Notes: generated from the sequence alone by a model not told the origin. Positions 14,016 to 30,775 are shown, numbered from the stretch's first letter. The stretch is DNA of 64,000 nucleotides from an uncultured Verrucomicrobiota bacterium (GCA_964640185.1 CAZXGF010000010.1:64162-128161); one strand, 5' to 3'. Numbers and translations: made by a program.

Positions 14016-14076
14016 ATTGTTGGCTATGAGTTCTGAGGGATATCGCCATACGATGCCAATGTGAGGGAGTGCTCAG

Positions 14077-15246: not shown

Positions 15247-15266
15247 CTATTAAGGAATAGCTACTC

Positions 15267-17646: not shown

Positions 17647-18852
17647 GTGGAAGTCCGTAGTAGAGGTATAAGAAAATCAATTGTAAGTGAGCCGCACTAT
17701 AAAGATAACACATCTATTTTAACTGGTGAACATTTCTGGCAGGGTGATATCGCCATTGCCGAGGGAGCTATAGCCGCAGGTAGTAGATTTTTTGCTGGAT
17801 ACCCTATTACTCCAGCATCGGAGATTGCAGAAAGAATGTCATTAAGACTCCCGCCTATAGGGGGAGTATATATCCAGATGGAAGATGAGCTTGCATCCAT
17901 GGCTGCCATTTTGGGGGGCTCCTGGAGTGGAGTCAAATCCATGACGGCGACCAGTGGGCCCGGTGTCTCGCTAATGCTTGAGAATTTTGGCCTGGGAATC
18001 ATGACGGAGACGCCGTGCGTGATCGTGAACGTGCAGAGAGGTTCGCCGTCCACGGGCTTGCCCACATTTTTTGGTCAGGCGGATATGATGCAGGCGAGAT
18101 GGGGTACACATGGAGATTATGAGGTTATTGCCTTAGCGCCGGATTCGCCCCAGGAATGCTTCGACCTTACTATAAAAGCCTTCAATTTGTCCGAGAAATA
18201 TAGATTGCCTGTGTTCATTCTTGCTGATGGTCTTGTCGGTCATATGACGGAAAAAGTTGTCGTCCCTGAAGCTGAAGAGATTGAAGTGTTTGACCGCCGG
18301 AAAACACAGAAACCTCCCGGTCAATATCTGCCTTATGAAGCCGAAGACGATCTCGTCCCGCAAATGGCCAATTTCGGCGAAGGGTACAGACTCCATACAA
18401 CAGGTCTTACCCATGACGAAAGAGGGTATCCCGATATGACCATCGAGGCGCAGGATAAACTAATTCGACGTCTCGTAAATAAAATTCGCCACAATGCCGA
18501 TGACATTATCATGGTCGAGGAAAAAGACCTGGAGGGTGCTGAAGTCGTCGTTGTTTCTTACGGAGTTACCTCCCGCGTGGTACCGCCTGCTGTCGAGCGA
18601 GCAAAAGGCGAAGGGATAAAGGTAGGGCAGTTCAGATTATTGACAGTTTGGCCCTTTCCCGACAAAAGGATTGCCCAGATTGCAGAGAAAGTAAAGGCAT
18701 GGGTCGTACCTGAAATAAACTTGGGACAGATAGTAAGAGAGGTCGAAAGAGCGGTTGGTAGGGTCTCAAAAGTAATCCCCGTTTCTCATGCGGGCGGGGA
18801 TGTTCATGACCCTGACGATATCTATACGGTTATCAAAGAGGCGATTCAGTGA
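17647..18852 (+). CDS. korA: 2-oxoglutarate/2-oxoacid:ferredoxin oxidoreductase alpha subunit (four-subunit type)
   Basis: GTG start after a GGAGGG RBS. IAEGAIAAGSRFFAGYPITPASEI and the transketolase-like C-terminal domain are present. Confidence 0.8.
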   Translation: MEVRSRGIRKSIVSEPHYKDNTSILTGEHFWQGDIAIAEGAIAAGSRFFAGYPITPASEIAERMSLRLPPIGGVYIQMEDELASMAAILGGSWSGVKSMTATSGPGVSLMLENFGLGIMTETPCVIVNVQRGSPSTGLPTFFGQADMMQARWGTHGDYEVIALAPDSPQECFDLTIKAFNLSEKYRLPVFILADGLVGHMTEKVVVPEAEEIEVFDRRKTQKPPGQYLPYEAEDDLVPQMANFGEGYRLHTTGLTHDERGYPDMTIEAQDKLIRRLVNKIRHNADDIIMVEEKDLEGAEVVVVSYGVTSRVVPPAVERAKGEGIKVGQFRLLTVWPFPDKRIAQIAEKVKAWVVPEINLGQIVREVERAVGRVSKVIPVSHAGGDVHDPDDIYTVIKEAIQ

Positions 18853-19676
18853 ATCAGATGCCAGAACATCCTCTTGAGCGTTGTCTGAGGATGGACAGGA
18901 TGCCGCATATATGGTGCTCCGGATGCGGTATCGGAACCGCTGTAGCCTGCTTTCTGAAGGCGTTGGATGAGACAGGCATCGACCCTGATAAGGTAGTTGT
19001 GGTTTCAGGAATAGGCTGTACCGGCAGAGTGGCGGGATATGTGAAGTTCGATTCTTTCCATACCACACATGGCAGGGCCATTCCTTTTGCCACAGGGGTC
19101 AAATTGGCAAACCCTGACCTTACAGTCATCGTCTTCTCTGGCGATGGCGATTTGTTTGCCATCGGAGGTAACCATTTTATTCATGCAGCAAGGCGGAACG
19201 TTGACATAAAAGTATTTTGCATAAACAACTTTATATACGGTATGACAGGAGGGCAGGCGGCGCCTACCACGCCTTTGGGAGCGAGGACTTCCACCTCACC
19301 ATACGGGTGTTTTGAACCACCCTTCAATCTTCCCTACTTAGCAGAATCGTGCGGTGCAGTATATGTTGCAAGGTGGACACCCCTTCATATAAGAAGGCTG
19401 ACCCATGCAATGGCGGAGGCGATAAGTAAGCGAGGATTTTCATTCATCGAGATTGTCTCGCCTTGTCCCACCGTGTACTCCCGGTACAATCGCCTGGGGG
19501 ACGGCCTGGCTATGATTAAATACTACCGCGAAAACAGCCGCATAGAGAATTGGGCTAATACCAAGGATGTTCCCCTTTCAATGAACAAGGAGATAGTGGT
19601 CGGGAAGTTTGTGGATATTGACAAACCGACATTCCTCGATTATCAGGGGGCGCAAATTGAGCAGAACAAAGAATAG
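18849..19676 (+). CDS. korB: 2-oxoacid:ferredoxin oxidoreductase beta subunit (TPP-binding)
   Basis: CSGCGIGT, the GDG...N TPP motif (SGDGDLFAIGGNHF), and a 4-nt overlap with korA. Confidence 0.85.
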   Translation: MNQMPEHPLERCLRMDRMPHIWCSGCGIGTAVACFLKALDETGIDPDKVVVVSGIGCTGRVAGYVKFDSFHTTHGRAIPFATGVKLANPDLTVIVFSGDGDLFAIGGNHFIHAARRNVDIKVFCINNFIYGMTGGQAAPTTPLGARTSTSPYGCFEPPFNLPYLAESCGAVYVARWTPLHIRRLTHAMAEAISKRGFSFIEIVSPCPTVYSRYNRLGDGLAMIKYYRENSRIENWANTKDVPLSMNKEIVVGKFVDIDKPTFLDYQGAQIEQNKE

Positions 19677-20214
19677 ATACAATATAAAGATTTCTGGTTT
19701 TGGTGGCCAGGGCATTATATTGAGTGGCTATGTAATTGGGAAGGCCGCATCTCTATACGACCATAAAGATGCGGCATTTACCCAGAGTTATGGCCCTGAA
19801 GCAAGAGGTGGGGCTTGTAGCGCAACCGTGGTCATAGAAAACGGAAGAATCGGCTATCCGCTGGTGAGAATGGCTGATTTTCTTATCGTCTTATCGAAGG
19901 AAGGTTATGAAAAATACGCTGCCAAGGTAGCCCCCGATTCTTTGACCTTTGTTGATGGCGACCTTGTGAAAGAAGCGCATGTGGACAACAAGAAGGTATT
20001 CGGAATCCCCGCGACACGCTTCGCTGAATCTATGGGTAAAAAGATTGTTGCCAATGTCATCATGCTTGGATTCTTTTCCGGTATAACCAATATTATCTCC
20101 AAACAGGCTATGGTGCAGAGTATTAAAACTTCTGTGAAAAAGGCTTTCGTTGAGATTAATCTAAAAGCTTTCGAAAGAGGCTACGAATATGCCAGTGAAA
20201 TCAGCGGAGAGTAA
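19657..20214 (+). CDS. 2-oxoacid:ferredoxin oxidoreductase gamma subunit
   Basis: Start trimmed to a TTG preceded by a [25 protein letters not shown] signature. Confidence 0.75.
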
Positions 20215-20479
20215 ACTTAAGGAATACAAGCCCAGGGTATTTAAGGGAACCGTCTATATAATCAAGGAGCAGTGTAAGGGATGTGGATTCTGCATCGAGT
20301 ACTGCCCTAAACAGATACTCGAGCCTTCTGAAGAGTTCAATGAGAAAGGCTATCACTACCCGGTCGTCGTTGACGAAGAGGGATGTGTAAACTGTAAGGT
20401 CTGCGAAGACATCTGTCCGGACTTTGCGATCTTCTCTCTCCCCAAAGAAGAAAATGGCAAACACGGGGGTTGTGGTTGA
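20189..20479 (+). CDS. 2-oxoacid:ferredoxin oxidoreductase delta subunit (2x[4Fe-4S] ferredoxin)
   Basis: [12 protein letters not shown] and [12 protein letters not shown] motifs. It overlaps both the gamma-subunit stop and the hdrA start. Confidence 0.7.
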
Positions 20480-22455
20480 AAAAAATCGGCGTATTCATCT
20501 GCCATTGTGGCGGTAATATCTCCAACGTTGTTGACGTGGAGGCCGTAGCGGAGGCTGTAGGAAAGGTTCCGGAAGTTGCGTTTTCAACCACGTACGACTA
20601 TATGTGCTCGGCCCCGGGACAGGATTTGATAAAAGAAAAGGCATCCGAACATGGCCTGGATGCTTACATTGTCGCCGCATGTTCCCACAACCTCCACGAA
20701 TCAACTTTTCGTGGGTTGGCAAAAGAAATCGGCATCAATCCATACCAGGTGGAAATAGCAAACATTAGAGAACATGATTCATGGGTACATGACGACCCCC
20801 AGAAAGCCACGGAAAAGGCCATTCTCATTATCAAAAGCGTAGTAGAGAAGATAAGGTTGAATGAGGACCTTTGGCCCATCCAGGTGCCCGTCACTAAAAA
20901 GGTCCTCATTATTGGCGCGGGCATTGCTGGCATTCAAGCAGCTCTCGATATAGGTAATGCAGGATACAAAGTTACCCTGGTAGAGAGGCGGGCATCTATT
21001 GGAGGGCACATGGCCCAGCTCTCCAAAACGTTTCCCACTCTGGATTGTTCTCAATGTATCATGACTCCTCGGATGGTCGAGGTAGCGAACCATAAGAACA
21101 TAGAATTATTGACCTACAGCGAGGTCGAAGACGTTTCCGGTTACGTTGGCAATTTCCGGGTAAAAATAAAGAAGAAACCAACGTACGTTGACCCCGAGAA
21201 ATGCAACATGTGTAATAAGTGTGCCGAGGTATGTCCTGTAGAGGTAGATAGTGCGCATGATGAAGGTATTATAAAAAGGAAAGCTATTTACATACCATTT
21301 CCTCAGGCAATACCTGCCACCTATACATTAGATATAGATGCTTGTTTGGGGCTTCTGCCTATTGCCTGCGGTGAGTGTGTCAAGGTTTGTGAACCCAAAG
21401 CCATCGATTATGACATGCAGCCGCAATTTGTTGAAGATGAGTTCGGCGCAATCATAGTAGCCACGGGGTACGAACTGTATCCCATCTTGAATTTGCAGGA
21501 ATACGGAGCGGGGCGAATACCCGATGTTATTAACGGCATGCAGTTTGAGAGACTGGTCTATCTGAACGCAACAACGGGTTGTGGAGTAAGAAGACCGTCA
21601 GATGGGAGGGTTCCTAAAGATGTTGTGTTCGTTCAGTGTGCTGGATCTCGCGATCCTGAGATGCATAATGCATACTGTTCGAGGGTCTGTTGCATGTATA
21701 CATCCAAGCATGCGATGTTATATAGAAGCGCTGTCCCTGACGGTCAGGTTTACGTCTTTTACATTGATATACGTTCCAATGGCAAAGATTATGAGGAGTT
21801 CGTTCAAAGAGTTAGGGAAGATCAGGGTGTTACCTACTTAAGGGGAAAGGTGTCAAAGATTTTCCAGGAAGATGGCAAGGTTGTAGTTTGGGGAGCAGAT
21901 ACGTTGACGGGGAAGAAAGTAGACATTAAAACAGACCTTGTGGTTCTTGCTACAACTATGGTTCCTTCTCCAGGGATTAGAGAACTGGCAACAAAGCTGA
22001 AGTTGAATGTAGATGAATATGGATTCGCCCAGGAAGCCCATCCCAAGCTAAGGCCTGTGGAAAGCCTTTCGGCGGGGATATTCATGGCAGGCTGTGTTCA
22101 GAGCCCCCGGGATATACCAGATACTGTATCGCATTCTTCAGCCGCAGCAAGTAAGGTTATGGGTCTCATTGCGAGTGATATTCTGGAGAGAGACCCAATC
22201 ATTGCTAAAGTTGATGAAGACCTGTGTAGCGGATGCAAGACGTGCATTTCCGTCTGCGCGTATGACGCCAGGGAGTTTAACGCAGCGAAGAACGTTGTAG
22301 AAGTCAATGCAGCGAGATGTGAGGCATGTGGTTCCTGCGTTGTGGCTTGTCCAAGCGGCGCCACTCAGCAACTCAACTTTGCGGATTCGCAGATAACCGC
22401 CATGCTGAAGGCGATCTTGTCCGAGGACGAACATGAACGTCAAGCACGATTTTGA
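20470..22455 (+). CDS. hdrA: heterodisulfide reductase subunit A (FAD, electron-bifurcating flavoprotein)
   Basis: N-terminal [16 protein letters not shown] site [45 protein letters not shown], an inserted ferredoxin and a C-terminal CxxCxxCxxxCP pair. Canonical 661-aa length. Confidence 0.9.
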
Positions 22456-22852
22456 GCCGAAGATCGTGAGTTTTCTCTGCAAGTGGTGCAGCTCGGCTGC
22501 TGCAGACCTTGCGGGGGTCACGCGGCTGAAATATCAACCGAACGCCGTGACCATCCGGGTGATGTGTTCGTCGCGGGTGGACCCCGTTCACGTTCTCCAG
22601 GCGTTCCGACACGGCGCGGACGGCGTTTTCGTGGGAGGATGTCACCCCGGGGAGTGCCATTACCAGGTCGGAAATTATCAGACAAGAAGAAGGGTCATCC
22701 TGTTACATGAGCTGCTGAGCGGAATGGGAATTTCGCCGGCCAGGCTGAGACTGGAGTGGATTTCAGCCGCAGAAGGGGCCAAGTTTAGAAACACGATGAA
22801 CGACTTCATTGATTCGGTGAGAGCTCTTGGTCCCCTGGCGCTACAGCGTTAG
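22433..22852 (+). CDS. mvhD: MvhD (methyl-viologen-reducing hydrogenase delta subunit)
   Basis: VSFLCKWCSSAAADLAG...MCSS...GGCHPGECHY. It overlaps the hdrA 3' end by 23 nt. Confidence 0.85.
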   Translation: MNVKHDFEPKIVSFLCKWCSSAAADLAGVTRLKYQPNAVTIRVMCSSRVDPVHVLQAFRHGADGVFVGGCHPGECHYQVGNYQTRRRVILLHELLSGMGISPARLRLEWISAAEGAKFRNTMNDFIDSVRALGPLALQR

Positions 22853-22959
22853 CGCTGGATCCTTAAGGAGAAATGGCGAGAAAAGTTGAGGTCATACTTC
22901 CAAACTTTTGACCTTCGTGTTGGGTATTGCGATTGCCCGTGAGATGGTGAGGACCAAAC

Positions 22960-23670
22960 ATGGATACACAAGATATTGAGAAAGTAACTGTATACATTAT
23001 GGGAAAGGCGTACGCGGTGCCGGCTGACCAGACGATCATGGGAGCAATTGAGTACGCAGGATATCAATTGATCAGGGGAGTTGGTTGCCGGGAGGGTTTC
23101 TGCGGTTCATGCGCGACCATTTATCGTCTGCCTGGGGATTACAAATTTCACATGGCACCCGCTTGCTCGACTCTGGTTCAGGACCAAATGTACATAGCGG
23201 AAATTCCCTTTGTCCCGACCGATAAGCCTACGTACAACATAGATGAGTTAGAGCCGGACTACACGGCCTTTGAAAAGAAATTCCCGGAAGTATTTAGGTG
23301 CGTGGCTTGTAACAGTTGCACCAAGGCCTGTCCCCAGGACCTTCAGGTGATGGATTACATCCAAGCCATCATTAAAAATAACGTTTCTGAATGCGCTGAC
23401 CTTTCGTTCGACTGCGTTGCCTGCGGTTTGTGCGCGATCAGGTGCCCCGCGGAAATGGTGCAACACAACATCGGACTGTTGGCAAGAAGACTCTATGGAA
23501 AGTATTTGAATCCACGGGGACAAAACTTAAAAAATCGCGTAAGAGAGGTTGAACAGGGCAAATACAAAGAAGAGCTTCAGGAACTGAAGAGGATGGATCG
23601 GCCCAGTTTGATGAAAATGTATGATAGCCGTGATATTGAACCTCAATATAGAAAAATTGAAGCCGATTAA
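22960..23670 (+). CDS. SdhB/FrdB/TfrB-like iron-sulfur subunit (2Fe-2S plus two 4Fe-4S-type motifs), soluble type
   Basis: CREGFCGSC...C (plant-type 2Fe-2S spacing), then CVACNSCTKACP and CVACGLCAIRCP. There is no CCG domain and no membrane-anchor gene nearby. Confidence 0.75.
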   Translation: MDTQDIEKVTVYIMGKAYAVPADQTIMGAIEYAGYQLIRGVGCREGFCGSCATIYRLPGDYKFHMAPACSTLVQDQMYIAEIPFVPTDKPTYNIDELEPDYTAFEKKFPEVFRCVACNSCTKACPQDLQVMDYIQAIIKNNVSECADLSFDCVACGLCAIRCPAEMVQHNIGLLARRLYGKYLNPRGQNLKNRVREVEQGKYKEELQELKRMDRPSLMKMYDSRDIEPQYRKIEAD

Positions 23671-23685
23671 AGGAGAGACGAGGCT

Positions 23686-25353
23686 ATGTATCCGAAATAT
23701 ATGCAGGACTCCTTGCGGAAAGTGGAGAGAACGCGGCCCGCGAGGCTGAAACTCGCAAAATCCGGCAGGCCGATTTTCCCCATGATGTCTGCTGAAGAGA
23801 GGGAGCAGATTCTGAACGAGTTTCATCCTGATTACAGAGAAGGAAGCAAAAGGGCTGTTCGGGTGGGTCCCAATAAGGGAGAACTCTTAACCAGCCAGAT
23901 TGCAGATATTCTTGAGTCTCACTCAAGGATAGATGTGGATGATTTTGATCTGAAACAACCCGATTTTGCAGCGGACGTGTTGATTATTGGGGGAGGCGGG
24001 GCAGGCTGTGCAGCTGCCATAATGGCCCAAAAGGAAGGTCTGAAATCCATAATCGCTACTAAGCTCAGGCTTGGTGATGCCAACTCCATAATGTCCCAGG
24101 GAGGTGTCCAAGCAGCAGTTAACCCGCAGGATTCACCTGCCAGGCACTACCTTGACACTGTCGGCGGGGGCCACTTCGATAATAAACCCGAGCTCCTCGA
24201 GGCATTAGTCAACGATGGCCCGCTCGTAATAGATTGGCTTCAGGAAATGGGCGTGATCTTTGATAAAGACGACCGCGGCGAGCTTGAGACGTTGTCCTTC
24301 GGGGGGTACTCTCGAAAAAGAATGTTATCCTCCCGAGACTATACAGGCATGGCTATTATGAGGACTCTCATGGACGAGGTGAGGAATCACCCCGATGACA
24401 TTAAGACAGTGGAGTTCTGCCCCGTCATAGAACTCATCCTTGGCAGCAACGGTAGCGCTGCTGGGGCGGTGGCGTATGACCTGGAGACAGAGGAATACTT
24501 CACCATTGAAGCCGGGGCCGTTATCATTGCCACAGGGGGTTTCGGAAGACTTCACATTAACGGATTCGATACCACGAATCACTACGGAGCGACGTGCGAT
24601 GGGCCCGTTATAGCCTATAGGGCCGGCGCAAGGCTGCTTTACATGGACTCCGTCCAGTATCATCCGACAGGTGCGGCGCATCCTGAGCAGATAGCGGGAT
24701 TCCTTGTCACGGAAAAGGTGAGAGGCGCCGGCGGGCAACTGCTCAATAAGGAGGCGGAGATTTTCGTCTACCCCATGGAACCAAGGGACGTAGAGACATC
24801 AGTAATCATGAGGGAATGTGCGGAAAGAGAGATGGGTATCATCACCCATTATGGAAGGTGCGGGGTGTGGTTGGATACTCCGGTCGTGGATCAAATCCAG
24901 GGAGAGGGATTCATAGTCAAGAGCTACCCGGCGATGGTGAGGCAGTTTAAAAGGTTTGATATTGATATGACCAAAGAGCCACTATTTGTATTCCCCACGC
25001 TTCATTATCAGAATGGCGGCATCGAAATCAACGCAAGGTGCGAAACAAATATTCCCGGCCTATTTGTGGCGGGCGAAGCTTCGGGCGGGGTTCATGGAAG
25101 AAACAGACTGATGGGGAATTCCATACTGGATTACAACGTTTTTGGCAGGAGGGCGGGTACTTATGCCGCGCTGTATGCGAAGGAACATAAACCCGGTAAG
25201 TTATCGCTCGGGCATGTTCGGAACTATGAATCGGAAATGAAGGACGCAGGTATTGAGACCAGCAGGATTTCACCTATACTCCTTCCGCTTTATACGCCGG
25301 AGTCAGTAAAAGAGAGACAACTTACAGCTCATTACGAGGGAACGCTAAGGTAA
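23686..25353 (+). CDS. succinate dehydrogenase/fumarate reductase flavoprotein-family subunit (SdhA/FrdA/TfrA-like) with an about 90-aa N-terminal extension
   Basis: FAD site LIIGGGGAGCAAAIMA and the SdhA/FrdA active-site region HYQNGGIEINARCETNIPGLFVAGEASGGVHGRNRLMGNSILD. A 15-nt gap separates it from the FeS subunit. Confidence 0.8.
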   Translation: MYPKYMQDSLRKVERTRPARLKLAKSGRPIFPMMSAEEREQILNEFHPDYREGSKRAVRVGPNKGELLTSQIADILESHSRIDVDDFDLKQPDFAADVLIIGGGGAGCAAAIMAQKEGLKSIIATKLRLGDANSIMSQGGVQAAVNPQDSPARHYLDTVGGGHFDNKPELLEALVNDGPLVIDWLQEMGVIFDKDDRGELETLSFGGYSRKRMLSSRDYTGMAIMRTLMDEVRNHPDDIKTVEFCPVIELILGSNGSAAGAVAYDLETEEYFTIEAGAVIIATGGFGRLHINGFDTTNHYGATCDGPVIAYRAGARLLYMDSVQYHPTGAAHPEQIAGFLVTEKVRGAGGQLLNKEAEIFVYPMEPRDVETSVIMRECAEREMGIITHYGRCGVWLDTPVVDQIQGEGFIVKSYPAMVRQFKRFDIDMTKEPLFVFPTLHYQNGGIEINARCETNIPGLFVAGEASGGVHGRNRLMGNSILDYNVFGRRAGTYAALYAKEHKPGKLSLGHVRNYESEMKDAGIETSRISPILLPLYTPESVKERQLTAHYEGTLR

Positions 25354-25375
25354 CTTAAAAAAGTAGGTTGGAGCG

Positions 25376-26368
25376 ATGGGCAAGCCGAAATTTGCGTTCT
25401 ATTGGTGCGCCTCTTGTGGCGGTTGTGAAGAGGCAATAATTGATCTTGGAGAAGATTTACTCAAAGTGACCGCCGCTGTGGACATTGTCTTATGGCCGGT
25501 CGCCCTGGATTTCAAGCGGAAGGACGTCGAAGCATTCGAGGACGGAGAGATTGATGTCAGCTTCATTAACGGGGCTGTGCGGACGGAAGAACAGGAGGAG
25601 ATGGTCAATCTTCTCAGGCAAAAATCGCAGCTCGTGTTCGCGTTTGGCTCGTGCGCCCACATCGGTGGAATTCCCGGCCTTGCCAATCTCTGGAACAAAG
25701 AATCGATCTTTGAGCGCGTGTATAAAACCGTACCCACAGTCAACAATCCGGATAACGTCTATCCGAAAACGACAACGGACATCAATGGGAACGAACTCAC
25801 TCTACCGGAGTTTTATGATACAGTGCGCACTCTGGATCAGGTGATAGACGTTGACTACTACATTCCGGGCTGTGCCCCTCCACCTGATCTCATCATGAAT
25901 GCCTTCACCGCCATCTTAGAAGGGAAACTTCCTGCGAAGGGGAGTGTGCTGGCGCCTGAGAAAAGCCTTTGTGATACATGTCCCAGAGCGAAGAGCAAGC
26001 CGGAAAAGCTCGCCATCAAAGAGATACGGAGAGTCCACCAGGTTGCTCCCGACCCCGAGAAGTGTTTTTTGGAACAGGGCATTATATGTCTGGGCCCGGT
26101 AACGAGGTCGGGATGTGGAGAAAGGTGCATAAATGCAAACATGCCCTGCCGGGGTTGCTTCGGACCTACGAGGGAAGTGGCCGACCAAGGCGCTAAGATG
26201 CTGAGCGTGATTGCCGCCTGCTTTGGAATTGAGAATGAGGACAAGATCTCCGATGAAGAAGTAAAGGCGATCGTGAATCAGGTGGACGATCCGGTTGGCG
26301 TTTTCTACATGTACAGCCTTGCCGCCTCCGTTCTCCGAAGAAGGCAAATGGAGCAGATAAAAGAGTAA
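25376..26368 (+). CDS. mvhG: [NiFe]-hydrogenase small subunit, MvhG-like (second copy)
   Basis: YWCASCGGCEE, GSCAHIGG, and a C-terminal CxxC...CRGCFGP distal-cluster region. Confidence 0.85.
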   Translation: MGKPKFAFYWCASCGGCEEAIIDLGEDLLKVTAAVDIVLWPVALDFKRKDVEAFEDGEIDVSFINGAVRTEEQEEMVNLLRQKSQLVFAFGSCAHIGGIPGLANLWNKESIFERVYKTVPTVNNPDNVYPKTTTDINGNELTLPEFYDTVRTLDQVIDVDYYIPGCAPPPDLIMNAFTAILEGKLPAKGSVLAPEKSLCDTCPRAKSKPEKLAIKEIRRVHQVAPDPEKCFLEQGIICLGPVTRSGCGERCINANMPCRGCFGPTREVADQGAKMLSVIAACFGIENEDKISDEEVKAIVNQVDDPVGVFYMYSLAASVLRRRQMEQIKE

Positions 26369-27859
26369 TTGGCGGAAAAGGACGACGTTAGCATGTCTAA
26401 AAGATTGACAATAGACCCCATAACACGACTCGAAGGACACGGCAAAATCGAGATCTTTCTGGATAGTCGCGGCAACGTCAGTCACGCTTATTTCCAGGTT
26501 CCGGAACTTCGTGGATTCGAGAAGTTCTGCGAGGGACGGCTCGCCGAGGAAATGCCCCGGATCACTCCCAAGATATGCGGCGTGTGCCCCACAGCGCACC
26601 ACATGGCTTCCGGAAAAGCCCTGGACGATCTGTTCGAGGTCAACCCTCCACCGGCAGCAAAGAAGATTCGGGAGCTTGTCAATTCGGCGTTCATTGCGGA
26701 GGATCACGCGCTCCATTTCTTCTTTCTGGGGGGGCCCGACTTCATTGTGGGCCCTCGGGCACCGGCGAGCGAGAGAAACATATTGGGTGTGATTGAAAAA
26801 GTTGGGCTCGACGCCGGCAAGCAGGTCATACACATCCGCAAACGGCTGCGTGATTTGATTGCGAAACAGGGGGGGAGAGTCATTCATCCAGTCTGTAACC
26901 TGCCGGGTGGGGTTTCCAAGGGTGTCAGCAAGGAGGACAGGGAGGAGTACATTCAAACGGGAAAGGAAGCCGTAGAATTCGCGCGATTTGCGCTGAAGAC
27001 CTTTGAGGATATTGTCGTTCAGAACAAGGAATATCTCGATCTTATCACCGGCGATATCTACCGCCACAGGACCTACTACATGGGGCTTGTGGATGAAAAC
27101 AACAAGGTCAACTTCTACGACGGTGAAATCAGGGTAGTTGACCCGGATGGGAAAGAGTTCGCGAAATTCAGTCCGAGAGAGTACCTGGACAACATCGAGG
27201 AACATATAGAGCCGTGGAGCTATGTGAAGTTTCCGTATCTCAAACACGTAGGGTGGAAGGGTTTTGTTGATGGCAAAGATAGCGGGGTGTATCGGGTTGC
27301 CCCGTTGGCCAGACTCAACGCGTCGGATGGAATGGCCACTCCGCTTGCCCAGGAAGAGTGTGAGAAGATGTATAGCACATTGGGTGGCAAGCCATCTCAT
27401 AATACACTTGCCAATCATTGGGCAAGGCTTATAGAGCTTCTCTACGCCTCGGAACGGCTCCTTGAGCTTGCCCAGGACGAGGAAATACTCGATCCCCACG
27501 TTCTAAACATTCCTTCGGCCGTGCCCGAGGAAGGGATCGGAGTTGTGGAGGCGCCGAGAGGCACACTCTACCATCACTACAAGACAGATGAGAAAGGAAT
27601 CCTCACCCACGTAAATCTCATCGTTGCCACAGTAAACAACGCGGCTGCGATATCTATGTCTATCGAGAAAGCAGCGAGAAGCCTGATCAAGAAAGGTAAG
27701 GCGGACGACGCGTTACTCAACATGGTGGAGATGGCTTTCAGGGCTTATGACCCTTGTCTTGCCTGTGCAACACATGCTATAGCAGGGGGTCCAGCGTTAG
27801 AAATTACGCTGTATGACAGTAAGGGAGAGCCGATAGACTCAATGGTCAATTTCGAGTGA
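26369..27859 (+). CDS. mvhA: [NiFe]-hydrogenase large subunit, MvhA-like (group 3c)
   Basis: N-terminal RLEGHG (L1 motif with CGVC just after) and C-terminal DPCLACATHA (L2 Ni-Fe ligands). 496 aa. Confidence 0.9.
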   Translation: MAEKDDVSMSKRLTIDPITRLEGHGKIEIFLDSRGNVSHAYFQVPELRGFEKFCEGRLAEEMPRITPKICGVCPTAHHMASGKALDDLFEVNPPPAAKKIRELVNSAFIAEDHALHFFFLGGPDFIVGPRAPASERNILGVIEKVGLDAGKQVIHIRKRLRDLIAKQGGRVIHPVCNLPGGVSKGVSKEDREEYIQTGKEAVEFARFALKTFEDIVVQNKEYLDLITGDIYRHRTYYMGLVDENNKVNFYDGEIRVVDPDGKEFAKFSPREYLDNIEEHIEPWSYVKFPYLKHVGWKGFVDGKDSGVYRVAPLARLNASDGMATPLAQEECEKMYSTLGGKPSHNTLANHWARLIELLYASERLLELAQDEEILDPHVLNIPSAVPEEGIGVVEAPRGTLYHHYKTDEKGILTHVNLIVATVNNAAAISMSIEKAARSLIKKGKADDALLNMVEMAFRAYDPCLACATHAIAGGPALEITLYDSKGEPIDSMVNFE

Positions 27860-28335
27860 TTCTTGTGAAACAAAAGGGCCGCACAGTTGTCGTGGGGATT
27901 GGGAATCCGATTCGCGGAGACGATGGTGTCGCAATCCGCCTGGTGCGCAAATTGAGAGAAGTGCTGCCCCCAAGGTTTGAGGTGAAGGAATCGGCCACGG
28001 CGGGCTTGGAATTGATGGAGACCATCCTGGGCTATCGCAGGGCAATCCTCATAGATGCTATACGAACTCCCGAAGGTGTGCCAGGTGAAGTTTACCGTTT
28101 TGATTGGCAGGACTCGAAGGTCGCCCCCTATCTACCTTTCTCTCACACGATCAATCTGGGGCAGGTTGTGGAGATGGGAGGGATGTTGGGGGGGCAAGAG
28201 ATGCCTGCCGTGGAAGTTCTGGCAGTTGAGGCGAAAAGACTTGATGCCTTCTGCGAGGACTTAAGCCCGGAATTGGAAGAGAAGCTTGACGAGATTGCCG
28301 CGGAACTTAGAACCGCAATCCAAGAGATAGATTGA
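27856..28335 (+). CDS. hydrogenase maturation endopeptidase (HycI/HyaD/FrhD family)
   Basis: VVGIGNPIRGDDGVAIRLV...D/H metal-binding pattern, a 4-nt overlap with mvhA, 159 aa. Confidence 0.8.
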   Translation: MILVKQKGRTVVVGIGNPIRGDDGVAIRLVRKLREVLPPRFEVKESATAGLELMETILGYRRAILIDAIRTPEGVPGEVYRFDWQDSKVAPYLPFSHTINLGQVVEMGGMLGGQEMPAVEVLAVEAKRLDAFCEDLSPELEEKLDEIAAELRTAIQEID

Positions 28336-28338
28336 AAC

Positions 28339-29445
28339 ATGACGAAGAGGGTTTACGTTGCAGCTACGAGACAGAATGACGGAAAGACCGTAGTCTCGAT
28401 AGGGCTTTTGAGGGCTTTTCTAAAAAGATATAATAAGGTGGGTTATATCAAGCCAGTCGGCCAGCAGTTTCGTATCGTGGACGGCGAGCAAGTAGATAAA
28501 GATGCGATCTTGATGAAGTCGATCTATGGGCTTGAGGAGAATTTAAGAGACATGAGTCCCATCGCCGTGCCGAGGGGATTCACAGAGAACTACATTCTCC
28601 ATGGGAACGCGCAGGCGCTCCGAAGAAAAGTCCTCGAAGCCTATGACAGAATAGCTAAGGACAAAGAGATAGTTGTTGTCGAGGGCACAGGACACGCAGG
28701 AGTCGGCTCTACCTTCGATATGTCAAACGCGGACGTGGCCCATCTTCTCGGTGCGCAAGTGATTTTGGTGACCTGTGGTGGAATTGGACGGCCAATCGAC
28801 GAGATAATGCTGAACAAGCCAACCTTCGATACCCGGGCTGTGAAGATACTGGGAGTGATTATCAATAAAGTCCTTCGTAAGAAATACAACAAGATCGATA
28901 CTTTTGTCAGAAGAGGATTGGAGAAGAAAAACATCGAAGTCTTGGGTGTGGTTCCGTTCGATCAGGTTCTTTCCAGTCCAACAGTCTCCGATCTTCTTGA
29001 AGATATCGGAGGAACGCTGCTGTATGGAAAAGGGCACCTGGATAATTCCGTAACCAAAATTGTAGTGGGCGCCATGCCTCCTCACGAGGCGCTGAACTAT
29101 TTTGGGCCCGGCACGCTGCTCATTACGCCTGGTAATAGAGAAGACAACATGCTGGCGGCAATTGGGGGTTGCCTTGCCGCTATCACGAAGACGCAGTGTG
29201 TGTCAGGGATTGTGGCGACATGTGGGTTCATTCCTCATAAGAGCGTACTGAAACTCATGGAGCGGGTTCCGATCCCGTTGATAGCCATCAAAGACGATAC
29301 TTATACGGCCGCCTCCAAGATCAATAGTCTCATAACTAAGATAAGGCCGAACGACACAAAGAAGATCACCGCGACAGAGCGCTTGATACAGAAATACGTG
29401 GATATAGATAGACTACTCTCTCTAATCCAGAATAGTGCTAATTAG
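28339..29445 (+). CDS. stand-alone phosphotransacetylase-N-terminal-like protein (AAA_26/CobQ-type P-loop fold plus DRTGG domain)
   Basis: VYVAATRQNDGKTVVSIGLLRAF (degenerate P-loop) and a C-terminal DRTGG-like block GTLLITPGNREDNMLAAIGG...IPLIAIKDDTYTAASKI. It lacks the Pta catalytic domain. Confidence 0.6.
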   Translation: MTKRVYVAATRQNDGKTVVSIGLLRAFLKRYNKVGYIKPVGQQFRIVDGEQVDKDAILMKSIYGLEENLRDMSPIAVPRGFTENYILHGNAQALRRKVLEAYDRIAKDKEIVVVEGTGHAGVGSTFDMSNADVAHLLGAQVILVTCGGIGRPIDEIMLNKPTFDTRAVKILGVIINKVLRKKYNKIDTFVRRGLEKKNIEVLGVVPFDQVLSSPTVSDLLEDIGGTLLYGKGHLDNSVTKIVVGAMPPHEALNYFGPGTLLITPGNREDNMLAAIGGCLAAITKTQCVSGIVATCGFIPHKSVLKLMERVPIPLIAIKDDTYTAASKINSLITKIRPNDTKKITATERLIQKYVDIDRLLSLIQNSAN

Positions 29446-29560
29446 TCCTCCATGTATGAGAGTTTCAGGGGACTTAGCAAACATGGATTATGGTAGTAAC
29501 GAGCCTGACGGCTGAGCGCCGCAGCGGTTTTTCACGATAAGTGTAGGGAAGCGGAAGAGT

Positions 29561-30775
29561 ATGGCAAACCGCGACGACGGTTTGAGAAAGGAGGGTTTGG
29601 ATATGGCGCAACCAAAATTTGTGGGCAAAGTGGAGTGGCCCGTCACGGTGCAGCTCGGAAAAGGGCTTGAAGGGGCGATCACGGGAGAATCGGCGATCGG
29701 CTACGTGGACGGCCAGAAGGGGTGGTTGGTCTATCGCGGATACAACATTTTCGACCTGGCCGAGCATTCCAGCTATGAGGAGACAGCTTACCTCTTGCTC
29801 TTCGGGAAGCTCCCCAAACAAGAAGAGCTGGACAAATTCAAGCAGAAGCTGATGGGGTATCGTGCCGTTCCGGGGTCAGTGTTTGACACGCTGAAATCTC
29901 TCCCCAGAGAGACCCATCCCATGGCGGCGTTGAGGACAGGAGTTTCGGTCCTGGGATGCCTTGATCCGAACGCTGACAAATGCGCCATCGAGAGCGAGAC
30001 GGAGATTTCGATCAAGCTGATTTCTCAGACCGCGACGATAGCCGCTGCCGTGGCCAGAACTCGGAAAGGTCTGGAACCTGTTGACCCTGACCCCAGCCTC
30101 GATCACACCGCCAATTATCTTCTGATGACCACCGGGGAAAAGCCGGATGAGTTGATGGCCAAGGTAATGGACGTGGCACTCATTCTGCACGCCGACCACG
30201 GCATGAACGCCTCGACATTCACCACGATGGTCATCCACTCCTCCCTTTCCGACATGTACTCTGCGATTGTAGGAGGGATCTGCAGCTTGAAGGGGCCGCT
30301 CCATGGTGGAGCCAATGAACGGGCTCTGGCAGACCTGCTGAAGTTGAACGACGAGGAGGACGCCGCGAGGTACGTCAAAGAGTGCATCGCCCAGAAGAAG
30401 AAGATTATGGGCTTCGGGCACCGCGTCTATAAGGCTTACGATCCCAGGGCCAAAATCCTCGGCAAGTACTCGCAGGATGTAAGCGAAAAGAAGGGGATGG
30501 GGCGCCTTTATCGCATCGCCAAAAGGGTCGAGGATGAGGTCATTGCAGCTTACGGAGAAAAGGGCATATTCCCGAACGTGGATTTCTATTCGGGCACAAT
30601 CTACTACGCGTTCGGCATAGAGCCAGCGATGTTCACGCCGATTTTTGCGGTCAGCAGGGTTGCCGGATGGTGCGCCCGTGTGCTCGAGTACATGCCTGTG
30701 AACAGGATTTTCCGTCCGCGAGCGGAATATGTGGGAGCGCTGGAGACGGAATACGTGCCTATTGACCAAAGGTAA
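29561..30775 (+). CDS. gltA: citrate synthase
   Basis: GLEGAITGESAIGYVDGQKGWLVYRGYNIFDLA, the catalytic His/Asp regions (GFGHRVYKAYDPRA), 404 aa. Confidence 0.85.
   Translation: MANRDDGLRKEGLDMAQPKFVGKVEWPVTVQLGKGLEGAITGESAIGYVDGQKGWLVYRGYNIFDLAEHSSYEETAYLLLFGKLPKQEELDKFKQKLMGYRAVPGSVFDTLKSLPRETHPMAALRTGVSVLGCLDPNADKCAIESETEISIKLISQTATIAAAVARTRKGLEPVDPDPSLDHTANYLLMTTGEKPDELMAKVMDVALILHADHGMNASTFTTMVIHSSLSDMYSAIVGGICSLKGPLHGGANERALADLLKLNDEEDAARYVKECIAQKKKIMGFGHRVYKAYDPRAKILGKYSQDVSEKKGMGRLYRIAKRVEDEVIAAYGEKGIFPNVDFYSGTIYYAFGIEPAMFTPIFAVSRVAGWCARVLEYMPVNRIFRPRAEYVGALETEYVPIDQR

What the first reader, a model, noticed from the sequence alone, without database searches (positions are those of the whole stretch)
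22960..25353. Soluble two-subunit SdhB/SdhA-like pair without a membrane anchor, embedded between hdrA-mvhD and mvhGA; the flavoprotein carries an unusual 90-aa N-terminal extension
The FeS protein has plant-type 2Fe-2S spacing (CREGFCGSC...C) and two CxxCxxCxxxCP motifs. In canonical SdhB the third cluster is a 3Fe-4S with a different motif. No SdhC/D, no cytochrome b and no CCG domain are fused. The flavoprotein has the FrdA/SdhA active-site region (HYQNGGIEIN...GEASGGVHGRNRLMGNS), but its FAD motif starts only at about residue 95, after an extension (MYPKYMQDSLRKVERTRPARLKLAKSGRPIFPMMSAEEREQILNEFHPDYREGSKRAVRV...) with no obvious homology.

The extension could mediate docking to HdrA/MvhD. 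It could also mean the start codon is mis-called, although the FeS-flavoprotein gap is only 15 nt, which argues for the long form.
Basis: partly seen in the sequence, partly recalled or inferred. Interest (0 to 1): 0.6.

Follow-up and report, generated by a model that had tools for sequence, protein, structure and literature searches.

The report
Hydrogenase/Hdr-linked soluble fumarate reductase pair
These two genes encode a membrane-free fumarate reductase that sits in a TCA-cycle operon wired to a hydrogenase and an electron-splitting Hdr complex; the gene family and this arrangement have been described from genomes, but nobody has tested the enzyme.

Summary
Window 22960-23670 encodes a 236-aa protein with 12 invariant Cys (one 2Fe-2S motif, two CxxCxxCxxxCP motifs). 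After a 15-nt gap, 23686-25353 encodes a 555-aa SdhA/FrdA-type flavoprotein whose FAD fold starts at residue 97.

The 95-aa N-terminal extension is real. It is gap-free in 82 related loci from many phyla, is predicted with good confidence, and matches no Pfam family or solved structure. It occurs only at the N-terminus of this flavoprotein family.

The pair is not an oddity of this genome. More than 599 species-level genomes carry it. It almost always lies next to hdrA-mvhD, hdrCB and the 2-oxoglutarate:ferredoxin oxidoreductase genes, with Mvh (H2) or Flx (NADH) as the donor module.

Rubin-Blum et al. 2019 called the orthologues 'tfrAB' and proposed an electron-bifurcating complex. Williams et al. 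2021 described the Mvh-linked version. I found no biochemistry or structure.

Most likely mechanism: H2 electrons are bifurcated at HdrA. One branch goes to ferredoxin/OGOR, the other through HdrC/HdrB and the FeS protein to fumarate.

The FeS subunit matches SdhB in architecture only, not as a family member. Novelty: a new member of a known, uncharacterised kind.

The parts
22960..23670 (+). Iron-sulfur subunit (236 aa). It has an N-terminal plant-type 2Fe-2S beta-grasp domain, an all-helical 2x[4Fe-4S] domain and a ~65-aa helical C-terminal tail with no known homology.
   Evidence: The translation is. The 12 Cys are invariant in 39 homologues. Pfam hits: Fer4_9 31.1 bits and Fer4_17 27.4 bits, both above their cut-offs, and Fer2_4 22.7 bits against a cut-off of 22.8. 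The N-terminal domain weakly resembles plant-type ferredoxins. The tail has no Pfam hit.
23686..25353 (+). Flavoprotein subunit (555 aa), an SdhA/FrdA/TfrA-type fumarate reductase catalytic subunit.
   Evidence: PF00890 scores 255 bits over residues 97-480. The best NCBIfam model is TfrA at 344.7 bits. The best solved-structure fold match is E. coli FrdA 1kf6_A (E 2.7e-30, about 450 aligned columns). Catalytic residues H326, T342, E343, R346, R367, H440 and R474 are invariant.
23686..23970 (+). Family-specific N-terminal domain of the flavoprotein (residues 1-95).
   Evidence: It is gap-free and 55.7% identical to the window across 82 loci. AF2 pLDDT is about 79-95, with helices 4-26, 36-46 and 70-76. 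A search of 1.84 billion representatives found 372 hits; among the 150 hits listed, all but one spurious TPR protein match at their own N-terminus. Of the nine hits scanned, seven have PF00890 starting at residue 92-100 and two have no Pfam match. It has no Pfam or PDB hit.
25276..25350 (+). Strongly conserved C-terminal tail of the flavoprotein (about residues 531-555, LLPLYTPE..RQLTAHYEGTLR). It is a candidate docking peptide.
   Evidence: Many positions are invariant. Mean identity across loci is 68.9%, and 91% in the last block. AF2 pLDDT is below 50. It has no Pfam hit.
20470..22455 (+). HdrA-like bifurcating flavoprotein.
   Evidence: It scores 674 bits against solved HdrA 8rvu_a over its full length, and 647 bits against 5odc_A. 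The NCBIfam HdrA2 model scores 771 bits.
22433..22852 (+). MvhD (FlpD) 2Fe-2S adaptor between the hydrogenase and HdrA.
   Evidence: PF02662 scores 173 bits.
16180..16590 (+). HdrC-like 2x[4Fe-4S] protein.
   Evidence: TIGR03290 scores 72 bits, below its cut-off of 160; Fer4_17 and Fer4_8 also match.
16601..17506 (+). HdrB-like protein with two CCG domains. It is the equivalent of the C-terminal half of TfrB and of the SdhE subunit of type E enzymes.
   Evidence: PF02754 matches twice. NCBIfam scores: HdrB TIGR03288 190 bits, MFR SdhE 149 bits, and TfrB model positions 262-485 at 53 bits. It scores 149 bits against solved HdrB.
17647..20479 (+). Four-subunit 2-oxoglutarate:ferredoxin oxidoreductase (KorA, KorB, KorG and the KorD ferredoxin subunit), inserted between hdrCB and hdrA.
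   Evidence: Pfam hits are POR_N/PFOR_II, TPP_enzyme_C, POR and Fer4. The same interleaving is seen in many phyla.
25376..28335 (+). Group 3c-type [NiFe] hydrogenase small subunit (MvhG) and large subunit (MvhA), plus the HycI-type maturation protease.
   Evidence: VhuG scores 225 bits and VhuA 403 bits in NCBIfam. Oxidored_q6, NiFeSe_Hases and HycI match in Pfam.
12957..16154 (+). Malate dehydrogenase and succinyl-CoA synthetase beta and alpha subunits. These are the operon-leading TCA genes.
   Evidence: Pfam hits. Intergenic gaps are 20-61 nt.
28339..30775 (+). DRTGG/AAA_26 protein (like the N-terminal region of phosphate acetyltransferase) and citrate synthase, at the end of the operon.
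   Evidence: Pfam hits; NCBIfam PRK05632 matches the N-terminal part of that model.

Best explanation
The two genes encode the fumarate-reducing end module of a soluble Mvh-Hdr electron-bifurcating complex built into a (reverse) TCA operon. It is FrdBA-like, and the literature calls its orthologues 'TfrAB'.

Proposed electron path (inferred, not shown):
1. H2 is oxidised by MvhAG.
2. Electrons pass through MvhD to the FAD of HdrA, where the pair is split.
3. The low-potential electron reduces ferredoxin or the KorD subunit and drives reductive carboxylation of succinyl-CoA by the Kor enzyme.
4. The high-potential electron runs through HdrC and the non-cubane clusters of HdrB, then the two [4Fe-4S] and the [2Fe-2S] clusters of the FeS protein.
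5. It ends at the non-covalently bound FAD of the flavoprotein, which reduces fumarate to succinate.

In this scheme fumarate (E0' about +30 mV) takes the role that CoM-S-S-CoB plays in methanogens. FeS plus HdrB together equal a split TfrB.

The 95-aa N-terminal domain and the conserved C-terminal tail are family-specific parts of the flavoprotein. They replace the missing canonical C-terminal helical domain and most likely form subunit or complex interfaces.

What is shown: gene content, conservation, catalytic residues and orthology to the published cluster. What is inferred: the electron path, the direction of the reaction and the docking role.
For: Operon:
- Eighteen tightly packed + strand genes: mdh, sucCD, hdrC, hdrB, korABGD, hdrA, mvhD, FeS, flavoprotein, mvhGA, hycI, a DRTGG-domain gene and citrate synthase. 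Gaps range from -68 to 140 nt.

Conservation of the neighbourhood:
- In 37 loci with at least 8 kb on both sides, the FeS gene is adjacent in 37/37.
- An Hdr gene lies within 10 kb in 33/37.
- HdrA + MvhD + HdrB/C are present in 25/37, KorA in 24/37 and MvhGA in 6/37.
- The phyla include Omnitrophota, Aminicenantes, Cloacimonadota, Sumerlaeota, Neomarinimicrobiota and Proteobacteria.

Orthology to the published cluster:
- The flavoprotein is 63% identical over residues 1-546 to that of the Escarpia laminata symbiont (locus L053).
- L053 has the published gene order frdB-frdA-hdrC-hdrB-korDABC-hdrA-flxDCBA.
- For that cluster, Rubin-Blum et al. proposed bifurcation to OGOR and fumarate reductase (PMC6315080). 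Mitchell et al. reported co-expression of the cluster, except for tfrAB itself (PMC11636981).
- An Mvh-linked version was described in Ca. Celaenobacter (PMC8542988).

Catalytic site and partners:
- The fumarate/succinate catalytic set is invariant.
- The covalent-FAD His is an invariant Asn (N133). By established knowledge of FrdA His44 mutants and soluble fumarate reductases, this favours fumarate reduction over succinate oxidation.
- HdrA is a full-length homologue of structurally characterised bifurcating HdrA.
- HdrB matches the C-terminal half of TfrB and the SdhE subunit of type E enzymes. These are precedents for a CCG protein docking onto an SdhAB-type pair.
Against: - No biochemical or structural data exist for any member in the literature I could search.
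- The window has citrate synthase rather than ATP-citrate lyase. No fumarase, aconitase or isocitrate dehydrogenase was seen among the window ORFs I scanned, so the direction of the cycle is not fixed by gene content.
- Aminicenantes carry the Hdr-Kor-Frd set without any hydrogenase or Flx genes nearby, so the electron donor there is unknown.
- Four of 37 full-context loci have no Hdr gene within 10 kb. One of them (L020) has FlxB- and FlxA-like genes directly upstream instead, so the pair can work with other partners.
- In the Riftia study, tfrAB expression did not track the rest of the cluster (PMC11636981).
- I could not model the complex, so the roles of the N-terminal domain and C-terminal tail are conjecture.
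Confidence: 0.6

Rival explanations
1. Thiol-mediated coupling, i.e. a true thiol:fumarate reductase. Mvh-HdrABC reduces a diffusible disulfide, such as a DsrC-like protein or a low-molecular-weight heterodisulfide. The FeS-flavoprotein pair then oxidises the resulting thiol to reduce fumarate, as Methanothermobacter TfrAB does with CoM-SH and CoB-SH.
For: - The best NCBIfam hit of the flavoprotein is TfrA.
- The literature annotates the orthologues as tfrAB and offers this as one option (PMC6315080 supplement; PMC11636981).
- HdrB keeps both CCG motifs.
Against: - The FeS protein lacks the CCG thiol-oxidising domain that defines TfrB. It scores 28.7 bits against a cut-off of 385, and the match covers only one cluster motif.
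- The window operon contains only one CCG protein. That protein would have to both make and consume the thiol, which achieves nothing that direct electron transfer would not.
- No thiol-carrier gene was seen in the operon.
Confidence: 0.12
2. The reaction runs in reverse, as confurcating succinate oxidation. In an oxidative TCA cycle of a fermenter or syntroph, electrons from succinate (high potential) and from reduced ferredoxin made by Kor (low potential) are merged at HdrA. They leave as H2 through MvhAG. This would solve the energetic problem of anaerobic succinate oxidation without a membrane.
For: - The operon ends with citrate synthase, not ATP-citrate lyase.
- The family is common in Aminicenantes and Cloacimonadota, which are described as fermenters or syntrophs.
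- Bifurcating Hdr-type complexes are reversible in principle (established knowledge).
Against: - The histidine that carries covalent FAD in every succinate-oxidising SdhA is an invariant Asn here. Non-covalent FAD enzymes of this superfamily are poor succinate oxidisers (established knowledge).
- Orthologous clusters in autotrophs sit next to ATP-citrate lyase (PMC6315080, PMC8542988).
Confidence: 0.15
3. The flavoprotein is not a fumarate reductase. It is another member of the superfamily, such as L-aspartate oxidase, an AprA-like enzyme or urocanate reductase, that merely borrows an FeS partner.
For: - No curated equivalog threshold is met.
- NadB models score only somewhat lower than TfrA and SdhA models (261.8 bits against 344.7 and 291.6).
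- NadB shares most of the catalytic residues.
Against: - TfrA and SdhA/FrdA models rank first.
- The best fold match is E. coli FrdA.
- The only sulfate-pathway relative that turns up is the PAPS reductase alpha subunit, at E 2e-4 and only over the FAD motif region.
- The gene sits between malate dehydrogenase, succinyl-CoA synthetase and 2-oxoglutarate:ferredoxin oxidoreductase, exactly where a fumarate/succinate step is needed.
- An obligate FeS partner is typical of Sdh, Frd and Tfr, not of NadB (established knowledge).
Confidence: 0.05
4. The N-terminal 95 residues are an annotation artefact, and translation really starts near the FAD motif.
For: There are internal Met codons at residues 33 and 34. 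No reference family (TfrA, SdhA, NadB) has such an extension.
Against: - Residues 1-95 are conserved without a single gap in 82 loci from many phyla. Alignments start at residue 1-2 in 80 of 82.
- M1, Y2 and P3 are nearly invariant in 73 sequences.
- All 120 listed homologues are 550-557 aa (118 of them exactly 555) and cover 99-100% of the query.
- A GGAG lies 10 nt upstream of the ATG.
- AF2 pLDDT is about 80-95 for the segment.
Confidence: 0.02

Closest known systems
Putative 'TfrAB/FrdBA' of the flxABCD-hdrABC-korABCD rTCA cluster in tubeworm symbionts and Thioflavicoccus mobilis (Rubin-Blum et al. 2019, PMC6315080; Mitchell et al. 2024, PMC11636981)
   Same: - Orthologous pair: the flavoprotein is 63% identical over residues 1-546, N-terminal domain included (locus L053).
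- Same neighbours: hdrC, hdrB, the four-subunit kor genes, hdrA and an MvhD/FlxD protein.
- Same proposal of flavin-based bifurcation to ferredoxin/OGOR and fumarate.
   Different: The donor module here is an MvhGA [NiFe] hydrogenase (H2), not FlxABC (NADH). The gene order differs. The window has citrate synthase at the end of the operon rather than ATP-citrate lyase.
TFR-OGOR-Mvh(group 3c)-Hdr cluster of Ca. Celaenobacter, Cloacimonadota (Williams et al. 2021, PMC8542988)
   Same: It has the same combination of fumarate reductase pair, OGOR, succinyl-CoA synthetase, Mvh hydrogenase and Hdr in one cluster, and was interpreted as an H2-driven rTCA cycle. Cloacimonadota loci in my set carry the same family (for example L069).
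   Different: The lineage differs. ATP-citrate lyase is encoded elsewhere in that genome. That paper assumed a heterodisulfide intermediate. The N-terminal domain was not mentioned in the passages I read.
Thiol:fumarate reductase TfrAB of Methanothermobacter (Heim et al. 1998; NCBIfam NF004900 and NF004898)
   Same: TfrA is the best-scoring curated family for the flavoprotein (344.7 bits). Both are soluble and lack a membrane anchor. By the published description (my own knowledge), the FeS part of TfrB has one 2Fe-2S and two 4Fe-4S motifs.
   Different: - The scores are far below the equivalog cut-offs (718 and 385).
- TfrB carries a fused CCG domain, whereas here the CCG protein (HdrB) is separate.
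- TfrA has no N-terminal extension: model position 6 aligns to residue 94.
- TfrA has a C-terminal region (model positions 413-546) that is missing here.
MvhAGD-HdrABC of hydrogenotrophic methanogens (PDB 5odc, 8rvu)
   Same: HdrA, HdrB, HdrC, MvhD, MvhG and MvhA are all present. HdrA and HdrB align over their full length to the solved subunits (674 and 149 bits).
   Different: The organism is bacterial. The genes are interleaved with kor and the fumarate reductase pair. The likely terminal acceptor is fumarate instead of CoM-S-S-CoB.
Type E succinate:quinone oxidoreductases and methylmenaquinol:fumarate reductase (SdhABE, with or without SdhF)
   Same: An SdhAB-type pair works with a CCG-domain protein. 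The window's HdrB scores 148.8 bits against the MFR SdhE model. In some type E enzymes the third cluster of SdhB is a 4Fe-4S (my own knowledge).
   Different: Those enzymes are membrane-associated and quinone-linked. Here there is no quinone-related gene in the operon, and the partners are HdrA and Mvh.
Soluble NADH-dependent fumarate reductases: Hydrogenobacter thermophilus FrdABCDE (Miura et al. 2008) and the Flx-Hdr-linked enzyme proposed for Pseudoclostridium thermosuccinogenes (PMC7282089, citing a 2019 preprint)
   Same: They are soluble multi-subunit fumarate reductases that serve the reductive branch. The P. thermosuccinogenes 'succinate operon' couples fumarate reductase to a bifurcating Flx-Hdr complex.
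   Different: Their donor is NADH. I could not obtain their sequences, so their relationship to this family was not tested.

Membership tests
SdhA/FrdA/NadB flavoprotein superfamily (Pfam PF00890 FAD_binding_2) | A FAD-binding plus capping domain that matches the model above the gathering score. | tested here: met
   The match scores 255.2 bits against a cut-off of 20.4, over residues 97-480 and model positions 1-414 of 414. The fold matches E. coli FrdA 1kf6_A with E 2.7e-30.
SdhA/FrdA fumarate/succinate catalytic subunits | The catalytic His/Arg set and Thr-Glu of the capping domain (E. coli FrdA H232, T244/E245, R248, R287, H355, R390). | tested here: met
   H326, T342, E343, R346, R367 (in PRDVE), H440 and R474 are invariant in 73 sequences. 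Residue equivalences were read from the HMMER alignments to 1nek_A and 2b76_A. R367 was assigned by motif rather than by the printed alignment.
Respiratory SdhA/FrdA (complex II type) | A histidine that carries covalently bound FAD (E. coli SdhA H45, FrdA H44). | tested here: not met
   The aligned position is N133, which is invariant in the family.
Respiratory SdhA/FrdA (complex II type) | A C-terminal helical domain and C-terminal domain, plus membrane anchor subunits. | tested here: not met
   All reference models stop matching near residue 506: TfrA at model position 412 of 546, SdhA at 413 of 568. Only 49 residues follow. No transmembrane protein is encoded in the operon.
TfrA, thiol:fumarate reductase subunit A (NCBIfam NF004900, equivalog) | A whole-protein score above the curated cut-off. 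| tested here: not met
   It scores 344.7 bits against a cut-off of 718. This is the best-ranking family, but the match is partial.
TfrB, thiol:fumarate reductase subunit B (NCBIfam NF004898) | An FeS domain fused to a C-terminal HdrB-like CCG domain, the thiol-oxidation site. | tested here: not met
   The FeS protein scores 28.7 bits against a cut-off of 385, covering only model positions 182-206, and has no CCG domain. The separate HdrB-like protein matches model positions 262-485.
SdhB/FrdB iron-sulfur subunit (TIGR00384, NF004616) | Sequence membership: a score above the cut-off and a match across both domains. | tested here: not met
   - It scores 30.9 bits against a cut-off of 88, and 31.5 against 228, each matching one motif only.
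- The family profile against PDB finds human SdhB at only 20.4 bits, E 2e-3.
SdhB/FrdB iron-sulfur subunit | Architecture: an N-terminal 2Fe-2S domain (CxxxxCxxC...C) followed by a helical two-cluster domain, encoded next to the flavoprotein gene. | tested here: met
   The Cys pattern is invariant. The AF2 secondary structure is a beta-grasp followed by an all-helical part, but the model is poor (pLDDT 66, pTM 0.39). The gene is adjacent to the flavoprotein gene in 77 of 82 loci.
SdhB/FrdB iron-sulfur subunit | The third cluster is a 3Fe-4S (CxxxxxCxxxCP). | tested here: not met
   Both motifs are CxxCxxCxxxCP, which predicts two 4Fe-4S clusters. Actual cluster content cannot be tested here.
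L-aspartate oxidase NadB (TIGR00551) | A score above the cut-off, and a stand-alone enzyme without an FeS partner. | tested here: not met
   It scores 261.8 bits against a cut-off of 452.75, ranking below TfrA and SdhA models. An FeS partner is always adjacent.
AprA, adenylylsulfate reductase alpha subunit | Detectable similarity beyond the FAD motif. | tested here: not met
   No AprA model appears among the best 25 of 42 NCBIfam hits. The only sulfate-pathway structure found is the PAPS reductase alpha subunit 8a8o_A, at E 2.4e-4 over residues 95-290.
Mvh-Hdr flavin-based electron-bifurcating complex | Presence of HdrA, HdrB (two CCG domains), HdrC, MvhD, MvhG and MvhA. | tested here: met
   The curated equivalog cut-offs are not reached (for example HdrA2 771 bits against 1100), so these are Hdr-like proteins, not methanogen equivalogs.
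Mvh-Hdr flavin-based electron-bifurcating complex | H2-dependent coupled reduction of ferredoxin and a high-potential acceptor. | not testable with these tools
   This needs enzyme assays.
Hdr-Kor-'TfrAB' rTCA gene cluster (Rubin-Blum et al. 2019) | An orthologous frdBA pair interleaved with hdrCB, korDABC and hdrA-flxD/mvhD. | tested here: met
   The flavoprotein is 63% identical to that of the E. laminata symbiont, and the same neighbours are present. The donor module and the citrate-cleaving enzyme differ.

The most novel reading that the evidence does not exclude
The genes may encode one physical super-complex of Mvh, Hdr, the fumarate reductase pair and Kor. In it, H2 electrons split at HdrA would be delivered by protein-bound cluster chains directly to fumarate (high-potential arm) and into 2-oxoglutarate synthase through KorD (low-potential arm). 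No free ferredoxin or thiol carrier would be involved. Fumarate reduction would then pay, one for one, for the ferredoxin-dependent carboxylation two steps later in the same cycle. The previously unremarked N-terminal domain and C-terminal tail of the flavoprotein, together with the helical tail of the FeS protein, would be the docking elements that replace the SdhA helical domain and the membrane anchor.
Probability: 0.2. Interest if true: 0.8.

Novelty: new member of a known kind. Interest (0 to 1): 0.42.

Why it matters
If the proposed mechanism holds, fumarate would be a natural high-potential acceptor for Hdr-type flavin-based electron bifurcation in bacteria. A soluble H2:fumarate/ferredoxin oxidoreductase would supply the low-potential electrons that the reverse TCA cycle needs, using no membrane and no ATP. 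That would change the energy budget assumed for rTCA and roTCA autotrophy. It would also help explain why this cluster has spread across very different phyla, including tubeworm symbionts, Gallionella relatives, Aminicenantes, Cloacimonadota and Omnitrophota.

The family is large and highly conserved, and no member has been purified or solved, so it is a good target for biochemistry and cryo-EM.

For this particular window the gain is modest. It adds one more Mvh-linked example. It also documents three things: the family-wide N-terminal domain, the loss of the C-terminal helical domain, and the Asn at the covalent-FAD position.

Tried and rejected
1. Mis-called start codon: rejected on conservation.
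2. Circular permutation, with the N-terminal domain being the SdhA helical domain moved to the front: no support. The 96-aa segment finds nothing in PDB, including all SdhA and FrdA chains, at E up to 10, and nothing in Pfam. A structural test was not possible because model coordinates are not returned.
3. Firm SdhB membership of the FeS protein: tested five ways and not supported.
   - phmmer against PDB.
   - Family profile against PDB.
   - NCBIfam.
   - Foldseek on the AF2 model. That model is poor (pLDDT 66, pTM 0.39), and its top hits, the NuoG/NDUFS1 N-terminal 2Fe-2S domains at TM about 0.23, are not meaningful.
5. NadB or AprA identity: rejected.
6. Internal promoters or terminators around the 107-nt mvhD-FeS gap: the consensus scans gave no more sites than shuffled sequence.
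7. Naming the source organism through exact protein look-ups: no names are on record.
8. Miura et al. 2008 and the 2019 Koendjbiharie preprint are not in the held library, so comparison with those enzymes rests on what other papers say about them.
9. A heterodimer or complex prediction was not attempted.

Full report
**What is in the sequence**

The two ORFs are as described. An FeS protein of 236 aa is encoded at 22960-23670. A flavoprotein of 555 aa is encoded at 23686-25353, 15 nt downstream, with a GGAG 10 nt before its ATG.

The FeS protein carries C43-x4-C48-x2-C51...C69 and two CxxCxxCxxxCP motifs, at 114-125 and 152-163. All 12 cysteines are invariant in 39 homologues.

The flavoprotein matches PF00890 from residue 97 to 480, at 255 bits. 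The quoted active-site strings are present.

**The surrounding operon**

The pair lies inside an 18-gene, tightly packed + strand operon (12957-30775; gaps -68 to 140 nt). The genes in order are:
- malate dehydrogenase;
- succinyl-CoA synthetase (SucC and SucD);
- an HdrC-like protein and an HdrB-like protein with two CCG domains;
- a four-subunit 2-oxoglutarate:ferredoxin oxidoreductase (KorABGD);
- HdrA and MvhD;
- the FeS protein and the flavoprotein;
- MvhG, MvhA and a HycI-type protease;
- a DRTGG/AAA_26 protein;
- citrate synthase.

None of these proteins has a convincing transmembrane segment. The 'soluble, no anchor' observation therefore stands. The statement 'no CCG domain' needs a qualifier: a CCG protein is an operon partner.

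**The N-terminal extension**

The extension is real and is a feature of the whole family.
- All 120 best database homologues are 550-557 aa (118 of them exactly 555), cover 99-100% of the query and are 67-87% identical, apart from the 100% self-match.
- In 73 aligned sequences M1, Y2 and P3 are nearly invariant. R17, R20, H47, P48, D49, G61, T69, L76, E77, R81 and L89 are invariant.
- Across 82 non-redundant loci from public genomes, the tblastn alignment starts at residue 1 or 2 in 80 cases. Residues 1-95 have no gap at all and 55.7% mean identity to the window, against 66.5% for the core.
- AlphaFold2 predicts the segment with pLDDT of about 79-95. It shows a long helix (4-26), a second helix (36-46), two short strands and a third helix (70-76).
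- The segment has no Pfam hit and no meaningful PDB hit at E up to 10.
- A search of 1.84 billion representative proteins found 372 matches. Among the 150 hits listed, all but one spurious TPR protein match at their own N-terminus.
- Of the nine listed hits I scanned against Pfam, seven have a PF00890 domain starting at residue 92-100 and two have no Pfam match.

The mis-called-start idea is therefore excluded, and 'no obvious homology' is confirmed.

- Every reference model stops matching at about residue 506: TfrA at position 412 of 546, SdhA at 413 of 568, NadB at 387 of 489. Only 49 residues follow. The canonical C-terminal helical domain is therefore missing.
- The last 25 residues (LLPLYTPE..RQLTAHYEGTLR) are among the most conserved in the protein, yet they are predicted with pLDDT below 50. 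A peptide that orders only on binding a partner would look like this.
- The histidine that carries covalent FAD in SdhA and FrdA aligns to N133, which is invariant.
- The catalytic set is invariant: H326, T342, E343, R346, R367 (PRDVE), H440 and R474.
- The best fold match is E. coli FrdA, with about 450 aligned columns, i.e. the core without the extension.
- Family ranking is TfrA (344.7 bits), then SdhA/FrdA (291.6, 275.6), then NadB (261.8). None reaches a curated cut-off. There is no AprA-like signal.

**The FeS protein**

The architecture is that of SdhB, FrdB and the N-terminal half of TfrB: a plant-type 2Fe-2S domain followed by a helical two-cluster domain. The gene is adjacent to the flavoprotein gene in 77 of 82 loci, and in all 37 loci with full context.

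Sequence membership fails. SdhB and TfrB models give only local, sub-threshold hits to one cluster motif. The family profile finds human SdhB at 20 bits.

The AF2 model is poor (pLDDT 66, pTM 0.39), so its Foldseek hits carry no weight. I therefore call the protein SdhB-like in architecture only.

It also has a roughly 65-aa helical C-terminal tail with no known homology.

**Conservation of the neighbourhood**

They come from Aminicenantes, Cloacimonadota, Omnitrophota, Sumerlaeota, Neomarinimicrobiota, Ignavibacteria, Gallionella/Nitrosomonadales, Sulfuricella, Alphaproteobacteria and the Escarpia laminata tubeworm symbiont.

Among 37 loci with at least 8 kb on both sides:
- 33 have an Hdr gene within 10 kb;
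- 25 have HdrA + MvhD + HdrB/C;
- 24 have KorA;
- 6 have MvhGA.

The donor module varies:
- Omnitrophota, a 'Planctomycetia' MAG, Cloacimonadota and others have MvhGA.
- The Escarpia symbiont locus has Flx-like Fer4_22 proteins after MvhD/FlxD.
- Aminicenantes have no donor genes nearby.
- One Aminicenantes locus has FlxB- and FlxA-like genes directly upstream of the pair and no Hdr.

**What is already known**

- Rubin-Blum et al. 2019 (PMC6315080 and its supplement) list exactly this cluster in the E. laminata symbiont: frdB, frdA, hdrC, hdrB, korDABC, hdrA, flxDCBA, aclBA. They call the pair putative tfrAB. [quoted passage not shown]
- My locus L053 is that organism. Its flavoprotein is 63% identical to the window's over residues 1-546.
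- Mitchell et al. 2024 report co-expression of the cluster in Riftia symbionts, with tfrAB itself an exception.
- Williams et al. 2021 describe TFR, OGOR, succinyl-CoA synthetase, a group 3c Mvh hydrogenase and Hdr in one cluster in Ca. Celaenobacter. That is the H2-linked arrangement seen here.
- A Flx-Hdr-linked fumarate reductase is also proposed for Pseudoclostridium thermosuccinogenes.
- A 2026 survey still treats the bifurcating complex as a suggestion.
- I found no biochemical or structural study. The closest solved flavoprotein is only about 35% identical.

**Most likely mechanism (inferred)**

HdrA and HdrB are full-length homologues of the structurally characterised bifurcating MvhAGD-HdrABC subunits. 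The window's HdrB also matches the C-terminal half of TfrB and the SdhE subunit of methylmenaquinol:fumarate reductase. These are two precedents for a CCG protein working directly with an SdhAB-type pair. FeS plus HdrB therefore amount to a split TfrB.

I propose the following path:
1. H2 is oxidised by MvhAG.
2. Electrons pass through MvhD to the FAD of HdrA.
3. The low-potential branch reduces ferredoxin or KorD.
4. The high-potential branch runs HdrC, HdrB, FeS protein, non-covalent FAD, fumarate.

A thiol shuttle is less economical, because the window operon has only one CCG protein and the FeS protein has no thiol site.

The Asn at the covalent-FAD position argues for the reductive direction (established knowledge of the superfamily). 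However, citrate synthase in place of ATP-citrate lyase keeps a reverse, confurcating succinate oxidation on the table.

The N-terminal domain, the C-terminal tail and the FeS tail are candidate interfaces. This was not testable with the tools available.

**Verdict**

The pair is a new member of a widespread family that has been described from genomes but not characterised biochemically. This window adds:
- another Mvh-linked example, in a roughly 17.8-kb operon with lower GC than its flanks (0.49-0.51 against 0.56-0.575), followed by a transposase gene;
- explicit documentation of the family-wide N-terminal domain, the lost C-terminal domain and the non-covalent FAD signature.

Interest is moderate.

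Noticed in passing
window 49-11101, minus strand: A second soluble redox module sits upstream on the opposite strand. It comprises a hydrogenase small-subunit-like protein (49-999, Oxidored_q6), a 1088-aa protein with Fer2_4 + Pyr_redox_2 + Fer4 domains (1761-5027), a NuoF-like protein (7926-9719) and a NuoE-like protein with an N-terminal FAD-motif fragment (10142-11101). It resembles HydABCSL- or NfnABC/StnABC-type electron-bifurcating complexes.
   Followed up: partly
window 31021-32703 (-) and 16000-30000: A DDE transposase gene lies directly after the operon. The operon has lower GC (0.49-0.51) than both flanks (0.56 and 0.575). The closest relatives of its proteins are in Omnitrophota (66-85% identity, same gene order, locus L004). 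This suggests horizontal acquisition but does not prove it.
   Followed up: partly
window 28339-29445 (+): A 368-aa protein has AAA_26 and DRTGG domains and matches only the N-terminal, non-catalytic part of phosphate acetyltransferase. It sits between the hydrogenase protease and citrate synthase, and is conserved at the same position in the Omnitrophota locus L004 (71% identity). Its role is unknown.
   Followed up: no
L020 7334-11668: In one Aminicenantes genome the FeS-flavoprotein pair is preceded directly by a FlxB-like (Fer4_22) gene and a FlxA-like (NAD_binding_1 + DHODB_Fe-S_bind) gene, with no Hdr gene within 10 kb. This may be a simpler NAD(P)H-linked form of the enzyme.
   Followed up: partly
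window 25276-25350 (flavoprotein residues 531-555): The C-terminal tail is among the most conserved parts of the protein but has AF2 pLDDT below 50. The active-site loops (132-163, 287-303, 322-340, 471-478) are also predicted with low confidence although they are invariant.
   Followed up: no
window 23287-23361 (FeS residues 110-134): The first cluster motif of the FeS protein (EVFRCVACNSCTKACPQDL) aligns to the last motif of E. coli SdhB, the 3Fe-4S motif SVFRCHSIMNCVSVCPKGL. The extra Cys sits where 3Fe-to-4Fe conversions are known (my own knowledge). So the order of motif types relative to SdhB may be swapped.
   Followed up: no
window 41871-44428 (-): A second 2-oxoacid:ferredoxin oxidoreductase is encoded here: a fused gamma-alpha subunit of 560 aa plus a beta subunit with a PFO_beta_C domain. 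It is separate from the Kor genes in the operon.
   Followed up: no
window 30778-31230 (+): This 150-aa ORF has a TTG start, 9 Cys, one hydrophobic stretch and no family match. It is probably not a gene. It fills the space between citrate synthase and the transposase.
   Followed up: no
L001-L003, L010 and other Aminicenantes loci: Aminicenantes keep hdrC-hdrB-korDABG-hdrA-mvhD-FeS-flavoprotein but have no hydrogenase or Flx genes nearby. The electron donor (or acceptor) for HdrA in that phylum is unexplained.
   Followed up: no
window 47402-48301 (-) and 54260-57664 (-): The downstream flank encodes a multi-haem cytochrome c-like protein and a 1134-aa CotH/lamin-tail-domain protein. They appear unrelated to the operon.
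   Followed up: no
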